A stretch of 64,000 nt of DNA from Candidatus Helarchaeota archaeon (GTDB lineage Archaea; Asgardarchaeota; Lokiarchaeia; Helarchaeales; RDOG01), in assembly GCA_019058315.1 (NCBI GenBank), contig JAHPZH010000003.1:556451-620450 (forward strand), read 5' to 3'. Position 1 is the first letter of the stretch, and the number at the start of each line of letters is the position of its first letter. Shown piece after piece: positions 11,265 through 19,785 of the stretch. The notes under the pieces are model-generated. The model made no database searches and was not told the origin of the DNA. It saw only the letters and a program-made list of their open reading frames with translations. A program made the position numbers and the translations under genes.

Positions 11265-12212
11265 TCAGACTAATAAATTGTCCACTGCTAATTTTGTAGC
11301 AATTCTTCCAAATGCTTTGTTTACATTAGTCCCATCTTTCGCTGAAGTTAGCATGAAATTAAACCCCAGTGAATCTCCCAGTTTCTTAGCTTCCATCATC
11401 TTTACTTGTCTATCAGGAAGATCTATTTTGTTTCCTATTAATAAACATTTGATTTTCTGCTTTTTTAGATCTCCAAGTTCTGATTCAACATCCTTTACCC
11501 AATCTGTAATATTTTCGAATGTTTCTTTCCTTGAAACGTCAAAAACAAAAAGGATTGCTTGTGTACCCCTATAATAATTTTTCCTGACTTTTCGGAAATA
11601 TTTTTGTCCCGCAACATCAAAAATACTAAATTTTATTTCTACATTTTCAAATAAATTGTAAGATTTTGTCATTATATTGACGCCTATAGTAGATATATAA
11701 TCTGAATCAAATTTATGCTCTACAAATTGACGAACAAGACTGGTCTTTCCAACTGCTCCATCCCCAATCATGATTAATTTAAATGTAAATCGGGTTGGTT
11801 CTAATTTTTCTAATTCGGGTAATTCAACAGAAATATCACGTTTTTCCAGATCTAATATTTGAGCTGCTTTTTCAGCTACGATATATGAATATGGGAGAAT
11901 ATCCGATGATTCAGCATCCTCGGAAGCCAGGGTTACGAGTACGTTCTTTCCACACTGGGTAAATAGGAATAATCCTTGCTCAGTCTCTATTTGTGCTCCA
12001 TAATGTCCTGTAACGCTGAACTCTCTCTTGATCCGCTCGGAAGCCATGCCGAATGATGCAGAGACTGCACCTACTACGTCTTCGTCCATTGATTCATCCA
12101 TTTTACTACCAATAACGAGTCCTTCGGGGTCAATAATGGCTGCCGCGATTATTTCTTTACTATGAGACACATAATTTTTTAGCAACTCAGTAATTTTTTC
12201 TGGTGTACTCAT
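11265..12212 (-). CDS. Roadblock/LC7 - Rab-like small GTPase fusion
   Basis: Roadblock motif AAAIIDPEGLVIGS; G1 GDGAVGKT, G3 DVAGQ, G4 NKID, G5 SAK. Confidence 0.9.
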   Translation of the reverse strand: MSTPEKITELLKNYVSHSKEIIAAAIIDPEGLVIGSKMDESMDEDVVGAVSASFGMASERIKREFSVTGHYGAQIETEQGLFLFTQCGKNVLVTLASEDAESSDILPYSYIVAEKAAQILDLEKRDISVELPELEKLEPTRFTFKLIMIGDGAVGKTSLVRQFVEHKFDSDYISTIGVNIMTKSYNLFENVEIKFSIFDVAGQKYFRKVRKNYYRGTQAILFVFDVSRKETFENITDWVKDVESELGDLKKQKIKCLLIGNKIDLPDRQVKMMEAKKLGDSLGFNFMLTSAKDGTNVNKAFGRIATKLAVDNLLV

Positions 12213-12369
12213 TTTTGCAAACTCTCTTTTGCTAATTTTTATTTGTAGACATAATTATAATTTTTTTATTAAAAAAATTTCTTCTTTAATCGATATATAT
12301 ATTTAACACCAGAAAATATAATATATAAATTATTTTTCAAGAACAATTGACTTTTAGAGCGAAATTAAA

Positions 12370-13326
12370 ATGGAATCATTAAAAAATTCAATATTTCCTT
12401 CCAGAACATTACCTTATTTAGATATAGCTAGAACTTATCAAATTTCTACAAGATTCCTTAAGGAAGATGGAAATTATCAAGATTGGGTTAAAATAGGACC
12501 TCAAGAAACTTATGAATTCCCCGAGCTCAAAGGCCCCGCATGTATTAGAGTATTTTGGATAACTATATCCCCTTCTATGTATAATATTATGAAAGTAATG
12601 AGTTATAAAGATTTACGCATACTTCGACAAATAGCTATAAAAATTAGATATGACGGAGAATCAAAATCGTCAGTTAAGGTTCCGATTGGAAATTTTTTTG
12701 GTACTACTTTTGGTAAATATAAACATTATTGTTCAAAATACCTTGGAACAACAAGTGGTGGGTATCACAGTTTTTTTCCAATTCCATTTAGAAAATCTTG
12801 TAAATTTTTAGTAAAAAATTATTCCACTACCGAAACTATCAAATTATTCGGCCATATTGAATACCAAAAACTAACGTTTTTTCCAGATAATGTAGGATAC
12901 TTTCATGCAAAATTTGTTCAAAAACGTCCTAAAATAGGAGAGCCATTCGAAGTATTGTCTGTTGATGGAAAAGGAATATATGTAGGAACTAGTATGGGTA
13001 TGAGAGGAAGTAATTTAAATATACCATTGTTTTTCTTAGAAGGAAATATTGATATATGTGTAGATGGAGAGAAATGTTTCCATTATACAGGAACTGAGGA
13101 TTACTTTTTAAGTGGATGGTATTTTGTTACCGGCGAATTCCACGATGAATATCATGGATGCACCATAAAAAGTTGGAAAAAAGGAGGAATTGTATCTGCT
13201 TATAGGTTTCATGAACCACCAATAAGTTTTAATAAAAATTTTAAATTATTAGCACATCATGGTGAACGTGATGAGATAAGATCTAATTATCAGAGCGTCG
13301 CTTATTTTTATTTGGAGAGAAAATAA
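12370..13326 (+). CDS. DUF2961 / glycoside hydrolase family 172 protein
   Basis: GPACIRVFWIT, VPIGNFFG, FPIPFRKSC, FLEGNI, TGTEDYFLSGWY, AYRFH, HGE, YQSVAYFY. Confidence 0.85.
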   Translation: MESLKNSIFPSRTLPYLDIARTYQISTRFLKEDGNYQDWVKIGPQETYEFPELKGPACIRVFWITISPSMYNIMKVMSYKDLRILRQIAIKIRYDGESKSSVKVPIGNFFGTTFGKYKHYCSKYLGTTSGGYHSFFPIPFRKSCKFLVKNYSTTETIKLFGHIEYQKLTFFPDNVGYFHAKFVQKRPKIGEPFEVLSVDGKGIYVGTSMGMRGSNLNIPLFFLEGNIDICVDGEKCFHYTGTEDYFLSGWYFVTGEFHDEYHGCTIKSWKKGGIVSAYRFHEPPISFNKNFKLLAHHGERDEIRSNYQSVAYFYLERK

Positions 13327-13327
13327 T

Positions 13328-14545
13328 ATGAAAAGTATATATTTAGCACTAGGATCAGAAATAGATCCTGAAAAATATTTAATTTGTAAATTCTATTTCG
13401 AATCTCAACTATCGGATGAGGAAGCTGCCGAAAGTATTGCAGCAGAAAGCTCTATAGGTACTTGGACAGACGTCCAGACCATGAAAGAAGAAATTAAAAA
13501 TAGATTAGCTGCAAAAGTATTTAAACTTGAGAAAAATATCATGCATATCGCATATCCCCTTGAAATGTTTGAAATTTCAGTTCCGCAGCTTCTAGCTGAT
13601 ATTGCTGGAAACATTTTTGGCATTAAATTTGTTGATAATCTTCGTTTATTAGAAGTAAAATTTCCTTCAAAATATATTAAGTCGTTTAAAGGTCCTCGTT
13701 TTGGTATAGAAGGAGTTCGAAAACTGCTTAAAATCAAAGAAAGACCACTTGTTGGAACGATAATCAAACCAAAAATCGGTTTATCAGCAGATGAGCATGC
13801 ACGAGTTGCATATGAAGCATGGGTTGGTGGTTGTGATTTCGTAAAAGATGATGAGAATTTAACTAATCAAGGTTTTAATCCTTTTAAAGAACGAGTAGAG
13901 AAGACTTTAAAATCTTTGGATAAAGCTGAAACTAAAACGGGTGAAAAGAAAAATTATGCACCAAATATTTCTGCTCCTTACAGTGAAATGATTGAAAGAG
14001 CCCAATTTGTTAAAGATAATGGAGGAAAATGTATTATGATAGATATACTTACTTGTGGCTTTTCTGCTCTACAAAGCATTGGAGAAGAAAATTTTGGTAT
14101 GGTGATTCATGGTCATAGGACTATGCATGGAGCGATAACGAGAAATGAGAAACACGGAATTCATATGAATGTTTTAGCTCAATTATCTCGATTTTGTGGC
14201 ATAGATCAACTTCATATTGGGACAATTGTTGGTAAAATGTCAGGCGATAAAGAAGAAGTATTGAAAAATGTAGAAGCATGCATTTATAAATGTGGACTAA
14301 AATCTGCTTTTCCTGTTTGTTCTGGCGGACTGTATGCAGGTCATATACCGCCCCTCATGGAAATTCTAGGAAAAAATATAATAATACAAGCGGGAGGAGG
14401 AGTTCATGGTCATACTAAGGGAACATCGGCAGGAGCAACATCAATGAGACAAGCGGTAGATGCAGTAATGGATGGGATTCCAATTGAAGAATTTATTAAA
14501 ACTCATGAAGAATTAAGACTAGCCCTGAAGAAATGGAAGAGGTAA
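13328..14545 (+). CDS. rbcL: Form III ribulose-1,5-bisphosphate carboxylase large subunit
   Basis: ESSIGTW, GNIFG, KPKIGL, DFVKDDE, HGHRTMH, LHIGTIVGKM, SGG and QAGGG. The active-site set appears complete. Confidence 0.93.
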   Translation: MKSIYLALGSEIDPEKYLICKFYFESQLSDEEAAESIAAESSIGTWTDVQTMKEEIKNRLAAKVFKLEKNIMHIAYPLEMFEISVPQLLADIAGNIFGIKFVDNLRLLEVKFPSKYIKSFKGPRFGIEGVRKLLKIKERPLVGTIIKPKIGLSADEHARVAYEAWVGGCDFVKDDENLTNQGFNPFKERVEKTLKSLDKAETKTGEKKNYAPNISAPYSEMIERAQFVKDNGGKCIMIDILTCGFSALQSIGEENFGMVIHGHRTMHGAITRNEKHGIHMNVLAQLSRFCGIDQLHIGTIVGKMSGDKEEVLKNVEACIYKCGLKSAFPVCSGGLYAGHIPPLMEILGKNIIIQAGGGVHGHTKGTSAGATSMRQAVDAVMDGIPIEEFIKTHEELRLALKKWKR

Positions 14546-15987
14546 AACCTTTGTTATTTGGGGGAATTGATGTTGGAACAACAGGAGTAAAGGTAATAAT
14601 ATCTGATGATCAGGGAAATGTTATTTCTTCTATTTCACACGATTTTAAATTCCCTAAAGTTACACTTCCGGATGGTTATTCAGAACAAAATCCAAAAATT
14701 TGGTGGGATGAACTAAAATCAACCTTGAAATTAACTATAAGAGATTTAGAGGGGAAATTTTTATTTGCATCTGATATTAAAGCCATTTCTGTTGACTCTA
14801 CATCCGGAACGATTATTCCTATTGGTAGAAATTTTGAACCTCTCCACAATGCTCTAATGTATAATGATTCTAGAGCTGTTAAAGAAGCTAAACAAATCAA
14901 CGAAGTTAGTCGAGATTTTTATTTAAAATTTAAACCTTCTTTCGCTCTTTCTAAAATCCTCTGGTTTAGGGAAAATAAACCTAAAATATATTTAAACACT
15001 TATAAGTTTGTCCATGCAGCAGATTATCTAGTCGGTATGTTAACAGATAATTTTACAATTTCTGATAGTTCTAATAGTCTGAAGACGGGTTATGACATAA
15101 TTCAAAAACGATGGCCGCCTTTTCTTGAAGATTTAGAAATAGAAGTGGATAGATTACCAGAAATAGTCCAACCTGGTCAAAAAATTGGAGAGATTTCAAA
15201 GAAATGCGCAGAAGAAACAGGATTATCGACTGCAACGACTGTTGTTGCTGGAGTTACAGATAGTACAGCTGGTGTTATTGCATCAGGTGCAGTGAATCCA
15301 GGAGATATTTTTAATGTAATAGGAACAACTTTGGTGGAACGAGCAGTTACTAAGAAGTTAGTAATTGATAAGAAAGGTCGAATATATTGTCATCAATTAC
15401 CAACTGGAAATTTTCTTCCGGGTGGTGCAAGTAATGTAGGGGGAGAAGTTCTAAAAAAATATTTTCCAAATGATAATTTGAAAGTGATGGATAGGAAATC
15501 AACTGAATATAAGCCATCCAATTTAATTATATATCCTTTAGCTAGAAAAGGAGAACGATTACCTTTCATAAATCCGGCAGCAGAAAGTTTTGTTGTTGGA
15601 CAACCAAAGGATAAATATCACCTTTTTACAGGTTGTCTGGAAGCAGTGGCATATGTGGAAAGGTGGATACTCGAAATTCTTAAAGATTTAGGTGCAAAAC
15701 TTGGAACAACGGTATATTCAGCTGGTGGGGGGGCGTATTCTAATGAATGGTGTCAAATCAGAGCAGATGTATTAAATAGAATAATCAGAAGACCTATGAT
15801 TGTTGAAGCTGCAATGGGAACTGCAATATTAGCGTCCACATATACCTTTTATAAGGATTTAGGCAAAGCAACAAAAAATATGGTTCATTATAAAGATCAT
15901 TTTGAACCTATTCCAGAAATGAAGAAAAAATATGATATAATTTATGATAAATTTAGATCCGAATGCAATAAACGTAATTATACTTAA
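14533..15987 (+). CDS. FGGY-family sugar kinase resembling the D-ribulose kinase (SePSK/AtXK1-like) subgroup
   Basis: GIDVGTTGVK, VDSTSGT, ALMYNDSRA, GVTDST, GGASNVGG, GERLPF. Overlaps rbcL by 13 nt. Confidence 0.8.
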   Translation: MEEVKPLLFGGIDVGTTGVKVIISDDQGNVISSISHDFKFPKVTLPDGYSEQNPKIWWDELKSTLKLTIRDLEGKFLFASDIKAISVDSTSGTIIPIGRNFEPLHNALMYNDSRAVKEAKQINEVSRDFYLKFKPSFALSKILWFRENKPKIYLNTYKFVHAADYLVGMLTDNFTISDSSNSLKTGYDIIQKRWPPFLEDLEIEVDRLPEIVQPGQKIGEISKKCAEETGLSTATTVVAGVTDSTAGVIASGAVNPGDIFNVIGTTLVERAVTKKLVIDKKGRIYCHQLPTGNFLPGGASNVGGEVLKKYFPNDNLKVMDRKSTEYKPSNLIIYPLARKGERLPFINPAAESFVVGQPKDKYHLFTGCLEAVAYVERWILEILKDLGAKLGTTVYSAGGGAYSNEWCQIRADVLNRIIRRPMIVEAAMGTAILASTYTFYKDLGKATKNMVHYKDHFEPIPEMKKKYDIIYDKFRSECNKRNYT

Positions 15988-16135
15988 AATAATTTATGAC
16001 ATCATTCTTTTAGAATCGCAATTTTAAGTAAATTTTAATTAATTCTCTATTTTTAAAGTCAATTTCCTCAAAGATAAGATATTTATATAATTTGTCAATC
16101 CGTAGTCTCATACTTCAATTCACATAATCCATCAT

Positions 16136-18502
16136 ATGGAGACATATAAGTTGCCCAAAAAATTAAAATTTTTAATTATTATAGGTTTAATATTGCCATT
16201 TTTTCTATTATTTTGTTCTAATGGACCAAATTTCTATAATATTCCATTTCCTATACAAACTAATACTGCACCTAGTTTAATTAGTATGAGTTTTGAAAGG
16301 GATAATTACACAGGTTCATATAATGGCAATGCTTCGCTAATGTATACCGATTGGGGATTTGATTGGTCAACTTGGGTGGTAGACAATTACAGTGAAAATT
16401 TAATTGACCCAAATATAACCATAAATAATTATGTATATGATGTAAATTATATTGATGTCTATGCTTATTGGCTTTTTAATGGCTTTAGCAGTCATATAAT
16501 TGAAGATAATTTAACAGCAGAATCAAATGTTACTAGTTCTATTTCATTCGCACAAGGGTTTACATCACCCGAATTATTATCAATTGATGAATTATCACTA
16601 TATTTAAATTATAGCTTACCAGGTAGTGAGTTATATAGGTTTGAAGTTACAATATATGATGAAAATTTACAGGATATAATTGATTATAATGAAACTTGGG
16701 ATAATAGACAAAATGTGGCTGAATGGTATACATTTGGATTTTCTAATAATATTTTAGAGGCTGGAAAGAATTATAGCATAGTCCTCACTATATGGTTTGA
16801 TTCAAGTCAAAATTATAATTCAACTAATTTTTGGAAGACTGCTAATCACAGTGTTTCAGCAGATCAAGGCATTTCAATGGTTCATGATGGAAATATTTGG
16901 ACCCAATTACCAAATGATAATGAAACAGATTTTCTTTGTCAATTTAGTTATGTACAATTAATTGATCCTGCAGAAGTGGATTTAAAATTTATTATAGAAG
17001 ATCAAGTTTGTATTCCAAACTATCGCAAAGGTTTATATTCTGTTGGATATGAAGCATTTTATTCCTATAATTTTGTTACTCCACCAGACCATACTATTAA
17101 TATTACAGCAATTGCGAATCAATCTGTTAATTTCGCTTATATAGATATTTATCCAAGATATGTACATTTGATAAATATAACAGGAACGTTCAATACTAGT
17201 GGAAACCAAATCAATTGGAACATTCAGTATCCATATAGAGATATTAGTCTAGATCAAACATTAGATTTCTTTATGTTTGAAAACGATTGGACCTTAGAGC
17301 ATTTCTATAACCCGAGTAATGGGGAATTTGAAGATTTATTTTTTGGATCTATTAAATTATGGAATGATACATATAATGGTATAATTGATATTTGGGGATT
17401 TCCTCTTGAACAAGACATATTTACGGGAATCTACCAGTCGTCTAACTATTTTAATAGATTTTCCACAAAGATGAAACTAGCAAATGGTAGTTATATAGGT
17501 GTTGCATCCTTTCAAATAGATCAGACAATTAGGCTTGAGGCCAAATTAGTAGATTCGAATAATCAACCATTATCAGGTGGAATAGGACACATCGAATTGA
17601 TTTCTCCATTAGGGACAGTGGTTTATAATGGTACTGGTTTAAATGCAAATAATGGCACCATAAACAGTTCTGACATTCTACTTTCAAATATAGGTTCAGG
17701 GGTTTATACTATTAACTTTTTTTGGACAAATGGAAGAAAAGTTGCATACTCTTCAACCCTTATTGAAATAAGAAAAGCACCCTCTCCTCCTATTTTTTTC
17801 CCCACTAGTGAAGATAACCCTGAAACGTTAATCCTAATCATAGCTCTAATAATTGCTGCAGTAGCAACCCCAGTAGCTCTAGTAGTTCGAAGACAACTTC
17901 AATTAAGAGATTGGGAAAAATCTTGTCGTTATTTATTTATTTTATCTAAAAATGGAGTAAGTATGTATAGCCATTCGTTTGGAATTGAATTTCAAGACCC
18001 TTTATTGATTTCTGGTATGATCTCTGCAATTAGCTCGTTTATAATAGAAGTTACAGGTAGCAAAAAACCCCTTAGAACTATCGATCAAGAGGATAAGAAA
18101 ATTCTATTATCTCATGGACAATATACAATTTCTGCACTAGTTGCAGACAAGTCTCTTTCTGTAATGTATAAACATTTAGAAACCTTCCATGTAGAATTTG
18201 AAAAGACATATAGATCTTTAATTAAGGATTGGAATGGCGATACCACTATTTTCAAAGGTACCGAAAAAATTATTGACAAATACTTCCCTATGGATATGGA
18301 AGAAAAGATAATACGTGGTGTGAAAAGGAAACTCATTGAGTTCACGGAAAGAGTTACTACTATCACTGATCCACTGGACGTAATCTCGATCTTCCGTGAA
18401 ATAACTGAATTTAGTTCGAAATATCAAGTAATCATTAATAAACATTATTTAAAACAGTATGGTGAATTGCTAAAAATCGCCGAGGAAAAAATACAAAGTT
18501 AA
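16136..18502 (+). CDS. Receptor-like membrane protein: large extracellular region, TM segment, cytoplasmic longin-like domain
   Basis: N-terminal hydrophobic segment, many N-x-S/T sequons, TM LILIIALIIAAVATPVALVV, then YLFILSKNGVSMYS...DPLLISGMISAISSF. Confidence 0.75.
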   Translation: METYKLPKKLKFLIIIGLILPFFLLFCSNGPNFYNIPFPIQTNTAPSLISMSFERDNYTGSYNGNASLMYTDWGFDWSTWVVDNYSENLIDPNITINNYVYDVNYIDVYAYWLFNGFSSHIIEDNLTAESNVTSSISFAQGFTSPELLSIDELSLYLNYSLPGSELYRFEVTIYDENLQDIIDYNETWDNRQNVAEWYTFGFSNNILEAGKNYSIVLTIWFDSSQNYNSTNFWKTANHSVSADQGISMVHDGNIWTQLPNDNETDFLCQFSYVQLIDPAEVDLKFIIEDQVCIPNYRKGLYSVGYEAFYSYNFVTPPDHTINITAIANQSVNFAYIDIYPRYVHLINITGTFNTSGNQINWNIQYPYRDISLDQTLDFFMFENDWTLEHFYNPSNGEFEDLFFGSIKLWNDTYNGIIDIWGFPLEQDIFTGIYQSSNYFNRFSTKMKLANGSYIGVASFQIDQTIRLEAKLVDSNNQPLSGGIGHIELISPLGTVVYNGTGLNANNGTINSSDILLSNIGSGVYTINFFWTNGRKVAYSSTLIEIRKAPSPPIFFPTSEDNPETLILIIALIIAAVATPVALVVRRQLQLRDWEKSCRYLFILSKNGVSMYSHSFGIEFQDPLLISGMISAISSFIIEVTGSKKPLRTIDQEDKKILLSHGQYTISALVADKSLSVMYKHLETFHVEFEKTYRSLIKDWNGDTTIFKGTEKIIDKYFPMDMEEKIIRGVKRKLIEFTERVTTITDPLDVISIFREITEFSSKYQVIINKHYLKQYGELLKIAEEKIQS

Positions 18503-18675: not shown

Positions 18676-19785
18676 GTGATATTTTTGAGTGTTAAGGAAG
18701 AGAAGCTCGGGGACCTACAAGTGGTGGAACCTATAAGTGAGAGAGGTTCTTTAGTTGAGGAGAAATTGTCGATAGATTCATCGAGAGTCAATTCATTAGA
18801 CACCATGCGGGGGTACTGCGTCTTAATGATGATTGCTTGGCATTATTATTTCTTCCTTAAAGTCGATTACCTAGAAACGAATTTTTTTATTTTTTGGATA
18901 ATGAATATTATTGTTTTACCTGGCAATCCAATGTTTGTAATCGTGATGGGCGCATCGTTAGTTTTATCCTTAGAGAGACGTAAACAAAAAGGTTATAACT
19001 CGCGAGATAATATTATTCATTTGATAAAGAGAGCAATACTTTTTTTTGTTGTTCATCATGTAATGGTTATTTCCTACCTTTTATATTTTGGGCCAGTGGT
19101 TTTTCAAGTTCGCGGATTATATCCAGGTTGGATTCCTGCTCTTGGAATTAATGCCATAATTTGTTTTTTCTTAATGTATTTACGAAAGATATATCGCTTT
19201 TTTGTTATAGTAGGGATAAACATTTCATCAATTATTAATCTAATACCATATATTGGTCTTGACTTCAATAGTCTATTTTATATGATATTCGGTACCATTT
19301 TAGGTGAGCTCATAGTGGAGGCTAGAAAAAAAGGTAATGTTTCTGCTTTTCAAAAAAGGATATTCATATTAGGGATAATTCTTTTTATATTGGGAATTCC
19401 ATGTGAATTATATATCAATAGCATATATGATCTATCTTTTCCCAATACTGATGTTTTGAATAAACCTTTTTTTGCAGTCTATTCAATAGGTATTTTCATA
19501 TTAACATTTGCAGTCTTATTTCGGATACAAGATTATAATAAAAATAAAAAGCGAATTTCACATCATTTAACACTTTTTAGTTCCTTGTCTCTAACTATAT
19601 TTTATTTTCATTATGCATTAGGAACAAACTTTTTTATGCCTTTCGGCTTTGGTAACTTTTTTTCTCTTTATTCATATGTATTATTTTTAATAGCTTTTTA
19701 TATAACCCTTTATTTAATCAGTGTACTCTGGTCCAGATCTAAAAATAAATATAGTTTAGAATGGTTTATTCGTAAATTTAGTTGA
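18676..19785 (+). CDS. DUF1624 / HGSNAT-like membrane acyltransferase
   Basis: RVNSLDTMRGYCVLMMIAWH, PMFVIVMGASL, SLTIFYFH, YSLEWFIRK. Confidence 0.75.
   Translation: MIFLSVKEEKLGDLQVVEPISERGSLVEEKLSIDSSRVNSLDTMRGYCVLMMIAWHYYFFLKVDYLETNFFIFWIMNIIVLPGNPMFVIVMGASLVLSLERRKQKGYNSRDNIIHLIKRAILFFVVHHVMVISYLLYFGPVVFQVRGLYPGWIPALGINAIICFFLMYLRKIYRFFVIVGINISSIINLIPYIGLDFNSLFYMIFGTILGELIVEARKKGNVSAFQKRIFILGIILFILGIPCELYINSIYDLSFPNTDVLNKPFFAVYSIGIFILTFAVLFRIQDYNKNKKRISHHLTLFSSLSLTIFYFHYALGTNFFMPFGFGNFFSLYSYVLFLIAFYITLYLISVLWSRSKNKYSLEWFIRKFS

What the first reader, a model, noticed from the sequence alone, without database searches (positions are those of the whole stretch)
12370..15987. GH172 - form III RuBisCO - ribulose-kinase-like operon: possible sugar-fed route to RuBP
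Seen: three genes coupled by a 1-nt gap and a 13-nt overlap, with RuBisCO catalytic motifs intact. No AMP phosphorylase, ribose-1,5-bisphosphate isomerase or PRK gene is in the window. Established: archaeal form III RuBisCO normally serves nucleoside salvage or the RHP pathway; characterised GH172 enzymes act on alpha-D-arabinofuranosides and alpha-D-fructofuranosides; SePSK/AtXK1-type FGGY kinases phosphorylate D-ribulose at C5. Inference: D-arabinose released from glycans goes to D-ribulose, Ru5P and RuBP. Alternatively the kinase converts ribulose-1-P directly to RuBP. Either would be a carboxylating pentose catabolism.
Basis: partly seen in the sequence, partly recalled or inferred. Interest (0 to 1): 0.7.

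Follow-up and report, generated by a model that had tools for sequence, protein, structure and literature searches.

The report
RuBisCO operon with sugar kinase
An Asgard archaeon keeps its only true RuBisCO in a conserved three-gene operon with a cytoplasmic sugar-cleaving enzyme and a little-studied sugar kinase, which suggests an undescribed way of burning five-carbon sugars through RuBisCO, although the usual nucleotide-based supply route is also encoded.

Summary
GH172 (12370-13326), form III RuBisCO (13328-14545) and a SePSK/AtXK-1-type FGGY kinase (14533-15987) lie head to tail on the + strand.

The trio is conserved. At least six contigs from Helarchaeota-type MAGs carry close relatives (69-93% identity). 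Two of them have three consecutive GenBank accessions for the three genes.

A RuBisCO-to-kinase pair also occurs in an unrelated archaeal lineage (L073/L080), and in a different order in G274. In the kinase tree these are separate origins.

This context is the exception. In the window's own order and in about ten other Asgard loci, RuBisCO sits beside ribose-1,5-bisphosphate isomerase.

The genome has no PRK, no transaldolase and no convincing transketolase. It does encode AMP phosphorylase and the isomerase elsewhere, so the standard route to RuBP exists.

The wider kinase family also pairs with FucA-like aldolases and a phosphopentomutase-type mutase. All these partners make or use sugar 1-phosphates.

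The link to RuBisCO is real, but C5 phosphorylation of ribulose is not established and no direct step to RuBP is shown.

This scan noted RuBisCO-kinase pairings before on other archaeal DNA. I found no paper describing the link. Interest is 0.68.

The parts
12213..12369 (+). AT-rich intergenic region with TATA-like boxes between the divergent Roadblock-Ras GTPase gene and GH172; putative operon promoter
   Evidence: Read directly from the sequence. The promoter assignment is an inference.
12370..13326 (+). GH172 (DUF2961) glycoside hydrolase, 318 aa, no signal peptide
   Evidence: PF11175 at 188 bits over the full profile. Equivalents of alphaFFase1 E270, E291, D292 and W298 are conserved. The N-terminus is hydrophilic.
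13328..14545 (+). Form III RuBisCO large subunit, 405 aa, the only bona fide RuBisCO in the genome
   Evidence: TIGR03326 at 516 bits, above the 497 cutoff. All catalytic motifs are intact. The second family member in the genome is a form IV RuBisCO-like protein. A GGAG motif lies about 10 nt before the ATG.
14533..15987 (+). SePSK/AtXK-1-type FGGY carbohydrate kinase ('FGGYa'), 484 aa; alternative TTG start at 14551
   Evidence: FGGY_N and FGGY_C domains. Nearest PDB entries are 5HTN at 176 bits and 5HTR at 168 bits, against 103 bits for E. coli XylB. Equivalents of SePSK D8, T11, S72, K163, D221 and S222 are conserved.
15988..16135 (+). Spacer with oligo-T tracts, then a TATA-like box before the next gene; putative end of the transcription unit
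   Evidence: Read directly from the sequence. The terminator assignment is an inference.

Best explanation
The three genes form one operon that feeds sugar-derived pentose carbon into RuBisCO. This archaeon has no phosphoribulokinase and no non-oxidative pentose phosphate pathway, so RuBisCO is its only evident way to turn C5 into C3. Proposed steps: (1) The cytoplasmic GH172 hydrolyses an imported alpha-D-arabinofuranoside- or fructofuranoside-type glycoside. Its catalytic residues are shown; the substrate is inferred from the family. (2) The released pentose is isomerised or activated by enzymes encoded elsewhere. A distant FucI-family isomerase is one candidate (inferred). (3) The SePSK-type kinase phosphorylates the terminal C5 hydroxyl of D-ribulose or, as its gene partners suggest, of a pentose or pentulose 1-phosphate. 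Conservation of the pocket is shown; the substrate and product are inferred. (4) RuBP is then reached in one of two ways. The short way goes directly from Ru1P, or from a pentose-1,5-bisphosphate through the genome's R15P isomerase. The long way runs Ru5P, R5P, PRPP, AMP, R15P, RuBP through enzymes the genome encodes (inferred). (5) RuBisCO carboxylates RuBP to two 3-phosphoglycerate. An intact active site is shown.
For: The trio is conserved in at least six contigs at 69-93% protein identity. Two contigs have three consecutive GenBank accessions, and one 2,439-bp contig can only fit GH172 and RuBisCO if they are adjacent. A RuBisCO-family gene overlaps an FGGYa ortholog by 4 nt in an unrelated archaeal lineage, L073/L080. 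G274 has FGGYb-FGGYa-aldolase-RuBisCO between GH1 and GH3 genes. In the kinase tree these are separate origins. The usual Asgard context is RuBisCO beside the R15P isomerase, with or without AMP phosphorylase, including in the window's own order, so this context is derived. The genome has no PRK, no transaldolase and only a 22-bit transketolase-like hit. It has one true RuBisCO. The kinase pocket matches SePSK, in which the catalytic Asp contacts O4/O5 of bound D-ribulose. Other FGGYa partners are FucA-like aldolases, an orthologous PGM/PMM-type mutase in four loci and a GalK-like kinase in L080.
Against: AMP phosphorylase (504 bits; passes TIGR02645) and the R15P isomerase ortholog are encoded elsewhere, so RuBP supply needs no new route. 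No enzyme for Ru5P-to-RuBP is present, and none for Ru1P-to-RuBP is demonstrated. GH172 is absent from the other RuBisCO-kinase lineages. About ten other FGGYa orthologs have no RuBisCO nearby. No FGGY kinase is known to take a phosphorylated sugar (my own knowledge). The isomerase candidate is only a distant FucI relative (131 bits against a 775 cutoff). Background synteny among the trio-clade MAGs could not be measured, because their contigs could not be fetched.
Confidence: 0.5

Rival explanations
1. The kinase is specifically a pentose or pentulose 1-phosphate 5-kinase (R1P to R15P, Ru1P to RuBP, or arabinose-1-P to arabinose-1,5-P2). It would be a non-homologous replacement for the known R1P kinases of the pentose bisphosphate pathway, giving a route to RuBP that needs neither PRK nor nucleotides. 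This is the sharper sub-case of the best explanation.
For: Every recurrent partner of FGGYa makes or uses a sugar 1-phosphate or 1,5-bisphosphate: RuBisCO, FucA-like aldolase of the kind shown to be Ru1P aldolase in haloarchaea, PGM/PMM-type mutase of the group that supplies R1P from R5P, and a GalK-like anomeric kinase in L080. Sato et al. state that R1P kinases cannot be recognised from sequence and may hide among unassigned archaeal sugar kinases. The main pocket residues are invariant across all partner contexts. SePSK's real substrate is unknown.
Against: There is no precedent for a phosphorylated substrate in the FGGY family (my own knowledge). No phosphate-binding feature of the pocket could be examined, because no coordinates were available. 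SePSK responds to free D-ribulose. The mutase's substrate is unassigned (353 bits against a 439 cutoff).
Confidence: 0.22
2. RuBisCO works only in the standard AMP/nucleoside salvage pathway. GH172 and the kinase serve an unrelated sugar pathway, for example D-ribulose to Ru5P for biosynthesis, and sit beside RuBisCO through rearrangement or loose co-regulation of carbohydrate genes.
For: AMP phosphorylase and the R15P isomerase ortholog are present. RuBisCO with R15P isomerase is the dominant Asgard arrangement. Most FGGYa orthologs are not next to RuBisCO. FGGYb lies next to RuBisCO in only 2 of 55 genomes, which shows that sporadic adjacency does occur.
Against: The genes are tightly packed, with a 1-nt gap and an overlap or a 5-nt gap. 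Gene order is kept down to about 70% identity. RuBisCO-FGGYa linkage arose independently, with a 4-nt overlap, in a separate lineage. Without transketolase and transaldolase, Ru5P has no other catabolic exit.
Confidence: 0.22
3. The kinase is a metabolite-salvage enzyme for RuBisCO chemistry. It would re-phosphorylate ribulose or xylulose species released by phosphatases from RuBP or from misfire products, which would match the presence of SePSK/AtXK-1 in cyanobacteria and chloroplasts.
For: The characterised family members come from RuBisCO-containing phototrophs and have no assigned physiological role. The family is repeatedly linked to RuBisCO.
Against: This does not explain GH172, the aldolase or the mutase partners. 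Many family members occur in bacteria labelled Thermoanaerobacter, Armatimonadota or Planctomycetes, which are not expected to have RuBisCO (my own knowledge, not tested).
Confidence: 0.06

Closest known systems
Archaeal AMP / pentose bisphosphate pathway (Thermococcus kodakarensis: AMP phosphorylase, R1P kinase, R15P isomerase, form III RuBisCO)
   Same: It uses a form III RuBisCO as a catabolic C5-to-C3 enzyme in an organism without PRK or a non-oxidative pentose phosphate pathway. The genome encodes AMP phosphorylase and an R15P isomerase ortholog.
   Different: Here RuBisCO is uncoupled from the isomerase and is co-operonic with a glycosidase and an FGGY kinase. The implied carbon source is a sugar or glycoside rather than a nucleotide. 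The kinase is not related to the known R1P kinases, and FGGY is never mentioned in PMC9700705.
Non-carboxylating pentose bisphosphate pathway of haloarchaea (R1P kinase, R15P isomerase, RuBP 5-phosphatase, Ru1P aldolase; PMC9700705)
   Same: A FucA-annotated class II aldolase acts on ribulose-1-phosphate. FGGYa orthologs in G123, G124 and G274 are followed by FucA-like aldolases.
   Different: The Asgard aldolases score only about 105 bits on the haloarchaeal Ru1P aldolase model, against a cutoff of 300. No RuBP phosphatase is linked. In the window the partner is RuBisCO, not an aldolase.
SePSK (Synechococcus elongatus, PDB 5HTN) and AtXK-1 (Arabidopsis, 5HTR) FGGY kinases
   Same: They are the nearest solved relatives. 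The catalytic and D-ribulose-contacting residues are conserved.
   Different: The similarity is distant (176 bits). The physiological substrate and product of SePSK are themselves unknown. The hosts of SePSK and AtXK-1 have PRK, whereas this archaeon does not.
Escherichia coli D-arabinose route through the fucose enzymes (FucI, FucK, FucA: D-arabinose to D-ribulose to D-ribulose-1-P to DHAP plus glycolaldehyde; recalled from memory)
   Same: It combines an FGGY kinase with a class II aldolase acting on D-ribulose derivatives. A FucI-family gene exists in the genome.
   Different: The window's kinase is not FucK-like (68 bits against a 471 cutoff). The FucI-like gene is distant and unlinked. 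RuBisCO takes the place of the aldolase in the operon.
GH172 alpha-D-arabinofuranosidases and alpha-D-fructofuranosidase (alphaFFase1 7V1V; ExoMA 8IC8; Dysgonomonas GH172)
   Same: The Pfam match covers the full profile, and the catalytic Glu pair and -1 subsite residues are conserved.
   Different: The protein is shorter (318 aa against 374-460) and only weakly similar (62-72 bits). It is cytoplasmic and archaeal. No GH172 has been reported next to RuBisCO in the papers I found.

Membership tests
Form III RuBisCO | RuBisCO large-subunit N- and C-terminal domains, scoring above the curated type III model cutoff | tested here: met
   PF02788 and PF00016 are present. TIGR03326 scores 516 bits against a cutoff of 497.45.
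Form III RuBisCO | Complete catalytic and RuBP-binding residue set (E60, T65, W66, N123, K175, K177, K201, D203, E204, H294, R295, H327, K334, S379, G381, G403, G404) | tested here: met
   All motifs are intact in the alignment to 2CWX and to relatives.
Form III RuBisCO | RuBP carboxylase activity | not testable with these tools
   This needs an enzyme assay.
GH172 glycoside hydrolase | DUF2961 domain over its full length | tested here: met
   PF11175 matches profile positions 1-234 of 235 at 188 bits.
GH172 glycoside hydrolase | Catalytic nucleophile and acid/base glutamates (E291 and E270 of alphaFFase1) | tested here: met
   The LEGN and GTEDYF motifs align to positions 270 and 291-294. The residue roles come from PMC8605356.
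GH172 glycoside hydrolase | Hydrolysis of alpha-D-arabinofuranosides or alpha-D-fructofuranosides | not testable with these tools
   This needs an assay on pNP-alpha-D-Araf and related substrates.
SePSK/AtXK-1-type FGGY kinase | FGGY N and C domains, with SePSK and AtXK-1 as nearest characterised relatives | tested here: met
   176 and 168 bits, against 103 bits for XylB.
SePSK/AtXK-1-type FGGY kinase | Conserved catalytic and sugar-contact residues (D8, T11, S72, K163, D221) | tested here: met
   D13, T16, S91, K184 and D243 are conserved in the window. S91 and K184 are invariant, and D13 and D243 nearly so, across 133 family members.
SePSK/AtXK-1-type FGGY kinase | D-ribulose kinase activity and the position phosphorylated | not testable with these tools
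   The product is not established even for SePSK.
Archaeal AMP / pentose bisphosphate pathway | AMP (NMP) phosphorylase present | tested here: inconclusive
   The gene at C11:375219-376472 scores 504 bits on TIGR03327, below the 535 cutoff, because it lacks the N-terminal 83 profile positions. It passes TIGR02645 (470 against 435) and NF003338.
Archaeal AMP / pentose bisphosphate pathway | Ribose-1,5-bisphosphate isomerase present | tested here: inconclusive
   The gene at C3:1118876-1119814 has TIGR00511 as its best hit at 267 bits, below the 314 cutoff. It is 40-60% identical to the isomerases beside RuBisCO in 13 other Asgard loci.
Archaeal AMP / pentose bisphosphate pathway | RuBisCO clustered with R15P isomerase and/or AMP phosphorylase, as is usual in Asgard relatives | tested here: not met
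   In the window, RuBisCO is flanked by GH172 and FGGY. The isomerase and the phosphorylase are on another contig or about 195 kb away.
Calvin cycle / RHP pathway | Phosphoribulokinase (PF00485) | tested here: not met
   There are no hits in the 94%-complete genome.
Non-oxidative pentose phosphate pathway | Transketolase and transaldolase | tested here: not met
   PF00923 gives no hit. PF00456 gives only a 21.7-bit partial hit.

The most novel reading that the evidence does not exclude
The SePSK/AtXK-1-type FGGY kinases are pentose (or pentulose) 1-phosphate 5-kinases. In this operon the kinase makes RuBP, or its immediate precursor R15P or arabinose-1,5-P2, from sugar-derived pentose 1-phosphate. 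That would be a route into RuBisCO that needs neither PRK nor nucleotides. It would also assign a function to an orphan kinase family found in archaea, bacteria, cyanobacteria and chloroplasts.
Probability: 0.2. Interest if true: 0.85.

Novelty: new variant of a known kind. Interest (0 to 1): 0.68.

Why it matters
Form III RuBisCO in archaea is understood as the end of nucleotide or nucleoside salvage. A conserved operon joining it to a glycosidase and a sugar kinase, in an organism with no phosphoribulokinase and no transketolase/transaldolase route, suggests that free sugars can also be burnt through CO2-dependent cleavage of RuBP.

If the kinase proves to act on a pentose 1-phosphate, two open questions would be answered together. 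One is the unidentified R1P-kinase-type step that Sato et al. flag as unrecognisable from sequence. The other is the physiological role of the SePSK/AtXK-1 family in cyanobacteria and plants.

It would also bear on carbon budgets for Asgard archaea in sediments, where RuBisCO genes are routinely read as nucleotide salvage only.

Tried and rejected
- **Exact trio in GTDB Asgard representatives.** It was absent from all 29 other RuBisCO loci. That first looked like non-conservation, but the large protein collection overturned it.
- **Two-kinase idea** (rhamnulokinase-like FGGYb at C1 plus FGGYa at C5 making RuBP from ribulose). This was weakened. FGGYb occurs in 55 of 400 genomes and is unlinked to RuBisCO in 29 of 30 loci.
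- **HAD phosphatase next to FGGYb as a RuBP or XuBP phosphatase.** G128's HAD is ThrH, and G000's is generic. Dropped.
- **Second GH172 near an e2b2 gene on C3, as a GH172-isomerase link.** The locus is a sulfatase, esterase and GH172 glycan cluster. The e2b2 gene lies beyond an opposite-strand esterase gene and is of ambiguous type. Dropped.
- **NCBIfam model for the haloarchaeal R1P kinase.** I guessed at neighbouring accessions and hit unrelated models. No result.
- **Single-protein scan of genome contigs.** It returned only one distant hit.
- **Metagenome scan.** It did not return the close relatives' contigs.
- **The look-up of encoding contigs.** Adjacency in the close relatives therefore rests on contig lengths and consecutive accession numbers, not on DNA I could read.
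- **Literature.** I found no paper linking form III RuBisCO to an FGGY kinase or to GH172.
Full report
**What is there.** On the + strand of the window lie three ORFs: 12370-13326 (318 aa), 13328-14545 (405 aa) and 14533-15987 (484 aa).
- The first is a GH172/DUF2961 protein. PF11175 scores 188 bits and covers the whole profile.
- The second is a RuBisCO large subunit. It passes the curated type III model (TIGR03326, 516 bits against a cutoff of 497).
- The third has both FGGY kinase domains and reaches no curated equivalog. Its best match is XylB at 223 bits against a cutoff of 380.

The upstream gene is a divergent Roadblock-Ras GTPase fusion, and the GC content is about 31%. An earlier scan note calls the genome Helarchaeota-type, and close homologues are labelled Helarchaeota or Promethearchaeota. 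The genome is 5.79 Mb in 12 contigs and 94% complete.

**Gene junctions.** The GH172 stop and the RuBisCO start are 1 nt apart, and a GGAG motif lies about 10 nt upstream. The kinase ATG at 14533 overlaps RuBisCO by 13 nt. Shorter homologues begin at MLFGG, which matches a TTG at 14551, 5 nt after the RuBisCO stop. The 157-nt region upstream of GH172 is AT-rich with TATA-like boxes. Oligo-T tracts follow the kinase, and a separate TATA-like box precedes the next gene. This fits one transcription unit, although that remains an inference.

**The proteins look functional.**
- RuBisCO keeps every catalytic and RuBP-binding motif when aligned to the Pyrococcus horikoshii enzyme and to relatives.
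- GH172 keeps the equivalents of the alphaFFase1 acid/base E270, nucleophile E291, D292 and W298. W267 and Y187 are replaced by Phe, and the Y187F mutant keeps 90% activity in the published work. Its N-terminus is hydrophilic, so the enzyme is cytoplasmic.
- The kinase's nearest solved relatives are SePSK (5HTN, 176 bits) and AtXK-1 (5HTR, 168 bits), well ahead of E. coli XylB at 103 bits. The equivalents of SePSK D8, T11, S72, K163, D221 and S222 are all present.

**What is known about that kinase family.** The SePSK paper shows only that D-ribulose stimulates ATP turnover in an ADP-Glo assay. The product is never identified, AtXK-1 hardly responds, and the authors call the real substrates unknown. 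In the crystal the catalytic Asp contacts O4 and O5 of the bound ribulose, which points to C5 as the target. I found no later functional study.

**Genome inventory.**
- PRK (PF00485): no hit.
- Transaldolase: no hit. Transketolase: only a 21.7-bit partial hit.
- RuBisCO family: two genes. The second (C3:652623-653939) is a form IV RuBisCO-like protein of MtnW type.
- AMP phosphorylase: C11:375219-376472. It scores 504 bits on TIGR03327, just under the cutoff because the N-terminal domain is missing, and it passes TIGR02645 and NF003338.
- e2b2-family genes: three. C7:220663 is MtnA. C3:779380 is ambiguous. C3:1118876 has R15P isomerase as its best hit (267 bits against a 314 cutoff) and is 40-60% identical to the isomerases beside RuBisCO in other Asgard genomes.

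So the standard AMP route to RuBP is most probably available, unlinked from RuBisCO. A distant FucI-family gene also exists on C2.

**Is the trio conserved?** Among 400 Asgard genomes, 348 have a RuBisCO match. None of the 29 best other loci has the trio. About ten of them have the R15P isomerase ortholog beside RuBisCO, and two of those also have AMP phosphorylase. In the window's own order (G123, G126, G127) RuBisCO also sits directly beside that isomerase.

The large protein collection changed the picture. Each of the three proteins has seven close relatives (69-93% identity) from Helarchaeota- or Promethearchaeota-labelled MAGs, and these share contigs.
- Contigs of 27,002, 19,448, 63,725 and 8,160 bp carry all three genes.
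- Contigs of 8,108 and 13,816 bp carry at least GH172 and the kinase, and the 8,108-bp contig also carries RuBisCO.
- A 2,439-bp contig carries GH172 and RuBisCO, which together occupy 2,172 bp.

GenBank accessions are consecutive: NVM02172/73/74 and MFX1449273/72/71 for GH172, RuBisCO and kinase, and MHA1378226/27 for GH172 and RuBisCO. On the 8.1-kb contig, MFX0134215, 213 and 212 leave one accession number unaccounted for between GH172 and RuBisCO.

**Does the link recur outside that clade?** Yes, for RuBisCO and the kinase.
- Two metagenome contigs, L073 and L080, have a RuBisCO-family gene whose stop overlaps the start of an FGGYa ortholog by 4 nt. Their kinases are nearly identical, so they count as one lineage. 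L080 is archaeal, because it carries GatD/GatE. It also has a GalK-like GHMP kinase 780 bp upstream. That RuBisCO-family protein keeps all residues except K177, which is Asn, and it scores below the type III cutoff.
- In G274, from another family, the order is GH1, URO-D-like, sugar-epimerase-like TIM barrel, DeoR, FGGYb, FGGYa, FucA-like aldolase, RuBisCO, GH3.
- In G128, the GTDB sister genus, RuBisCO is followed by FGGYb in three frame-shifted pieces.

In the kinase tree the trio clade (100% SH-aLRT support) is sister (97%) to the Asgard aldolase-linked clade (G123, G124, G127, G274). L073/L080 branches elsewhere, so the linkage to RuBisCO arose more than once. In the RuBisCO tree the trio clade plus the G128 group form their own clade (99%), distinct from the isomerase-linked RuBisCOs of the same order.

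**What else does this kinase family travel with?**
- In G123, G124 and G274 it is followed by a FucA-like class II aldolase.
- In four metagenome loci (L071, L072, L075, L078; GC 36-48%) it is followed, with overlap, by mutually orthologous PGM/PMM-type mutases (39-59% identical). These are related to the archaeal GlmM/PgmG group.

RuBisCO, FucA-type aldolase (the Ru1P aldolase of haloarchaea), a phosphopentomutase-type mutase and a GalK-like anomeric kinase all make or use sugar 1-phosphates or 1,5-bisphosphates. Sato et al. state that R1P kinases cannot be recognised from sequence and may hide among unassigned archaeal sugar kinases. FGGY never appears in that paper. The main pocket residues (S91, K184, D243 in window numbering) are invariant or nearly so in 133 family members, whatever the partner. 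This is the basis for the sharper hypothesis that the family phosphorylates C5 of a pentose or pentulose 1-phosphate.

**What was weakened.** FGGYb is rhamnulokinase-like (about 500 bits against a 528 cutoff). It occurs in 55 of 400 genomes and is unlinked to RuBisCO in 29 of 30 loci. A C1-plus-C5 two-kinase route is therefore not favoured. The HAD lead and the second GH172/e2b2 lead did not hold.

**Reading.** I favour, at about 0.5, an operon that channels glycoside-derived pentose into RuBisCO, in a cell where RuBisCO is the only evident C5-to-C3 exit. Within that reading, either the kinase makes Ru5P, which reaches RuBP the long way (R5P, PRPP, AMP, R15P), or it acts on a 1-phosphate and reaches RuBP or R15P directly. 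The second is the novel case, at about 0.2. The main rival, at about 0.22, is that RuBisCO serves AMP salvage only and the neighbours are unrelated sugar genes. A metabolite-salvage role for the kinase is a minor rival.

**Novelty.** I found no paper that links form III RuBisCO with an FGGY kinase or with GH172. Two earlier AI notes of this scan, on other genomes, report intact archaeal RuBisCOs paired with sugar kinases. They agree with this report but are not independent evidence. I class the finding as a new variant of a known kind: RuBisCO-dependent pentose catabolism with a new, sugar-fed input module.

Noticed in passing
L071:2150-3619, L072:3595-5031, L075:11477-12832, L078:1237-2577: In four metagenome loci the SePSK-type kinase ortholog is followed directly, with overlap, by mutually orthologous PGM/PMM-family mutases (39-59% identical). 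This kinase-mutase pair is of unknown function.
   Followed up: partly
L080:5947-7155 and L073:3-785: A RuBisCO-family protein keeps all active-site residues except K177 (Asn) and scores below the type III cutoff. It overlaps an FGGYa kinase gene by 4 nt on an archaeal contig that also carries a GalK-like GHMP kinase and an AdoHcy hydrolase.
   Followed up: partly
L051:7727-10408 (G128): The sister genus has RuBisCO followed by a rhamnulokinase-like FGGY gene split over three reading frames. A TAA lies within the region that aligns to the N-terminal part of the window's RuBisCO. This is either decay or assembly error.
   Followed up: no
L052:1-11617 (G274): RuBisCO is embedded in a sugar-utilisation island: GH1, URO-D/MtaA-like, epimerase-like TIM barrel, DeoR, two FGGY kinases, FucA-like aldolase, RuBisCO, GH3. 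URO-D/MtaA-like or MTTB-like genes also lie near the kinase in L075 and L076.
   Followed up: partly
window 11265-12212 (-): A Roadblock/LC7 domain is fused to a Ras/Rab-like small GTPase, divergent from the operon. A second Ras-like GTPase lies next to FGGYb at G000:C11:641235-642137.
   Followed up: no
window 16136-18502 (+): A 788-aa ORF directly downstream of the operon has no Pfam or NCBIfam match.
   Followed up: no
window 18676-19785 (+) and G000:C3:773125-774237: HGSNAT/DUF418-type membrane acyltransferase genes lie near two of the genome's five GH172 genes. The C3 copy is in a cluster with a sulfatase and a carboxylesterase.
   Followed up: no
G000:C11:549901-552113 (4.3 kb before the window start): Another FGGY kinase (best match autoinducer-2 kinase, 336 bits against a 528 cutoff) is paired with a class II aldolase on the minus strand.
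   Followed up: no
G000:C3:652623-653939: A form IV RuBisCO-like protein (MtnW-like, 365 bits against a 409 cutoff). The genome also has a clear MtnA at C7:220663-221709.
   Followed up: no
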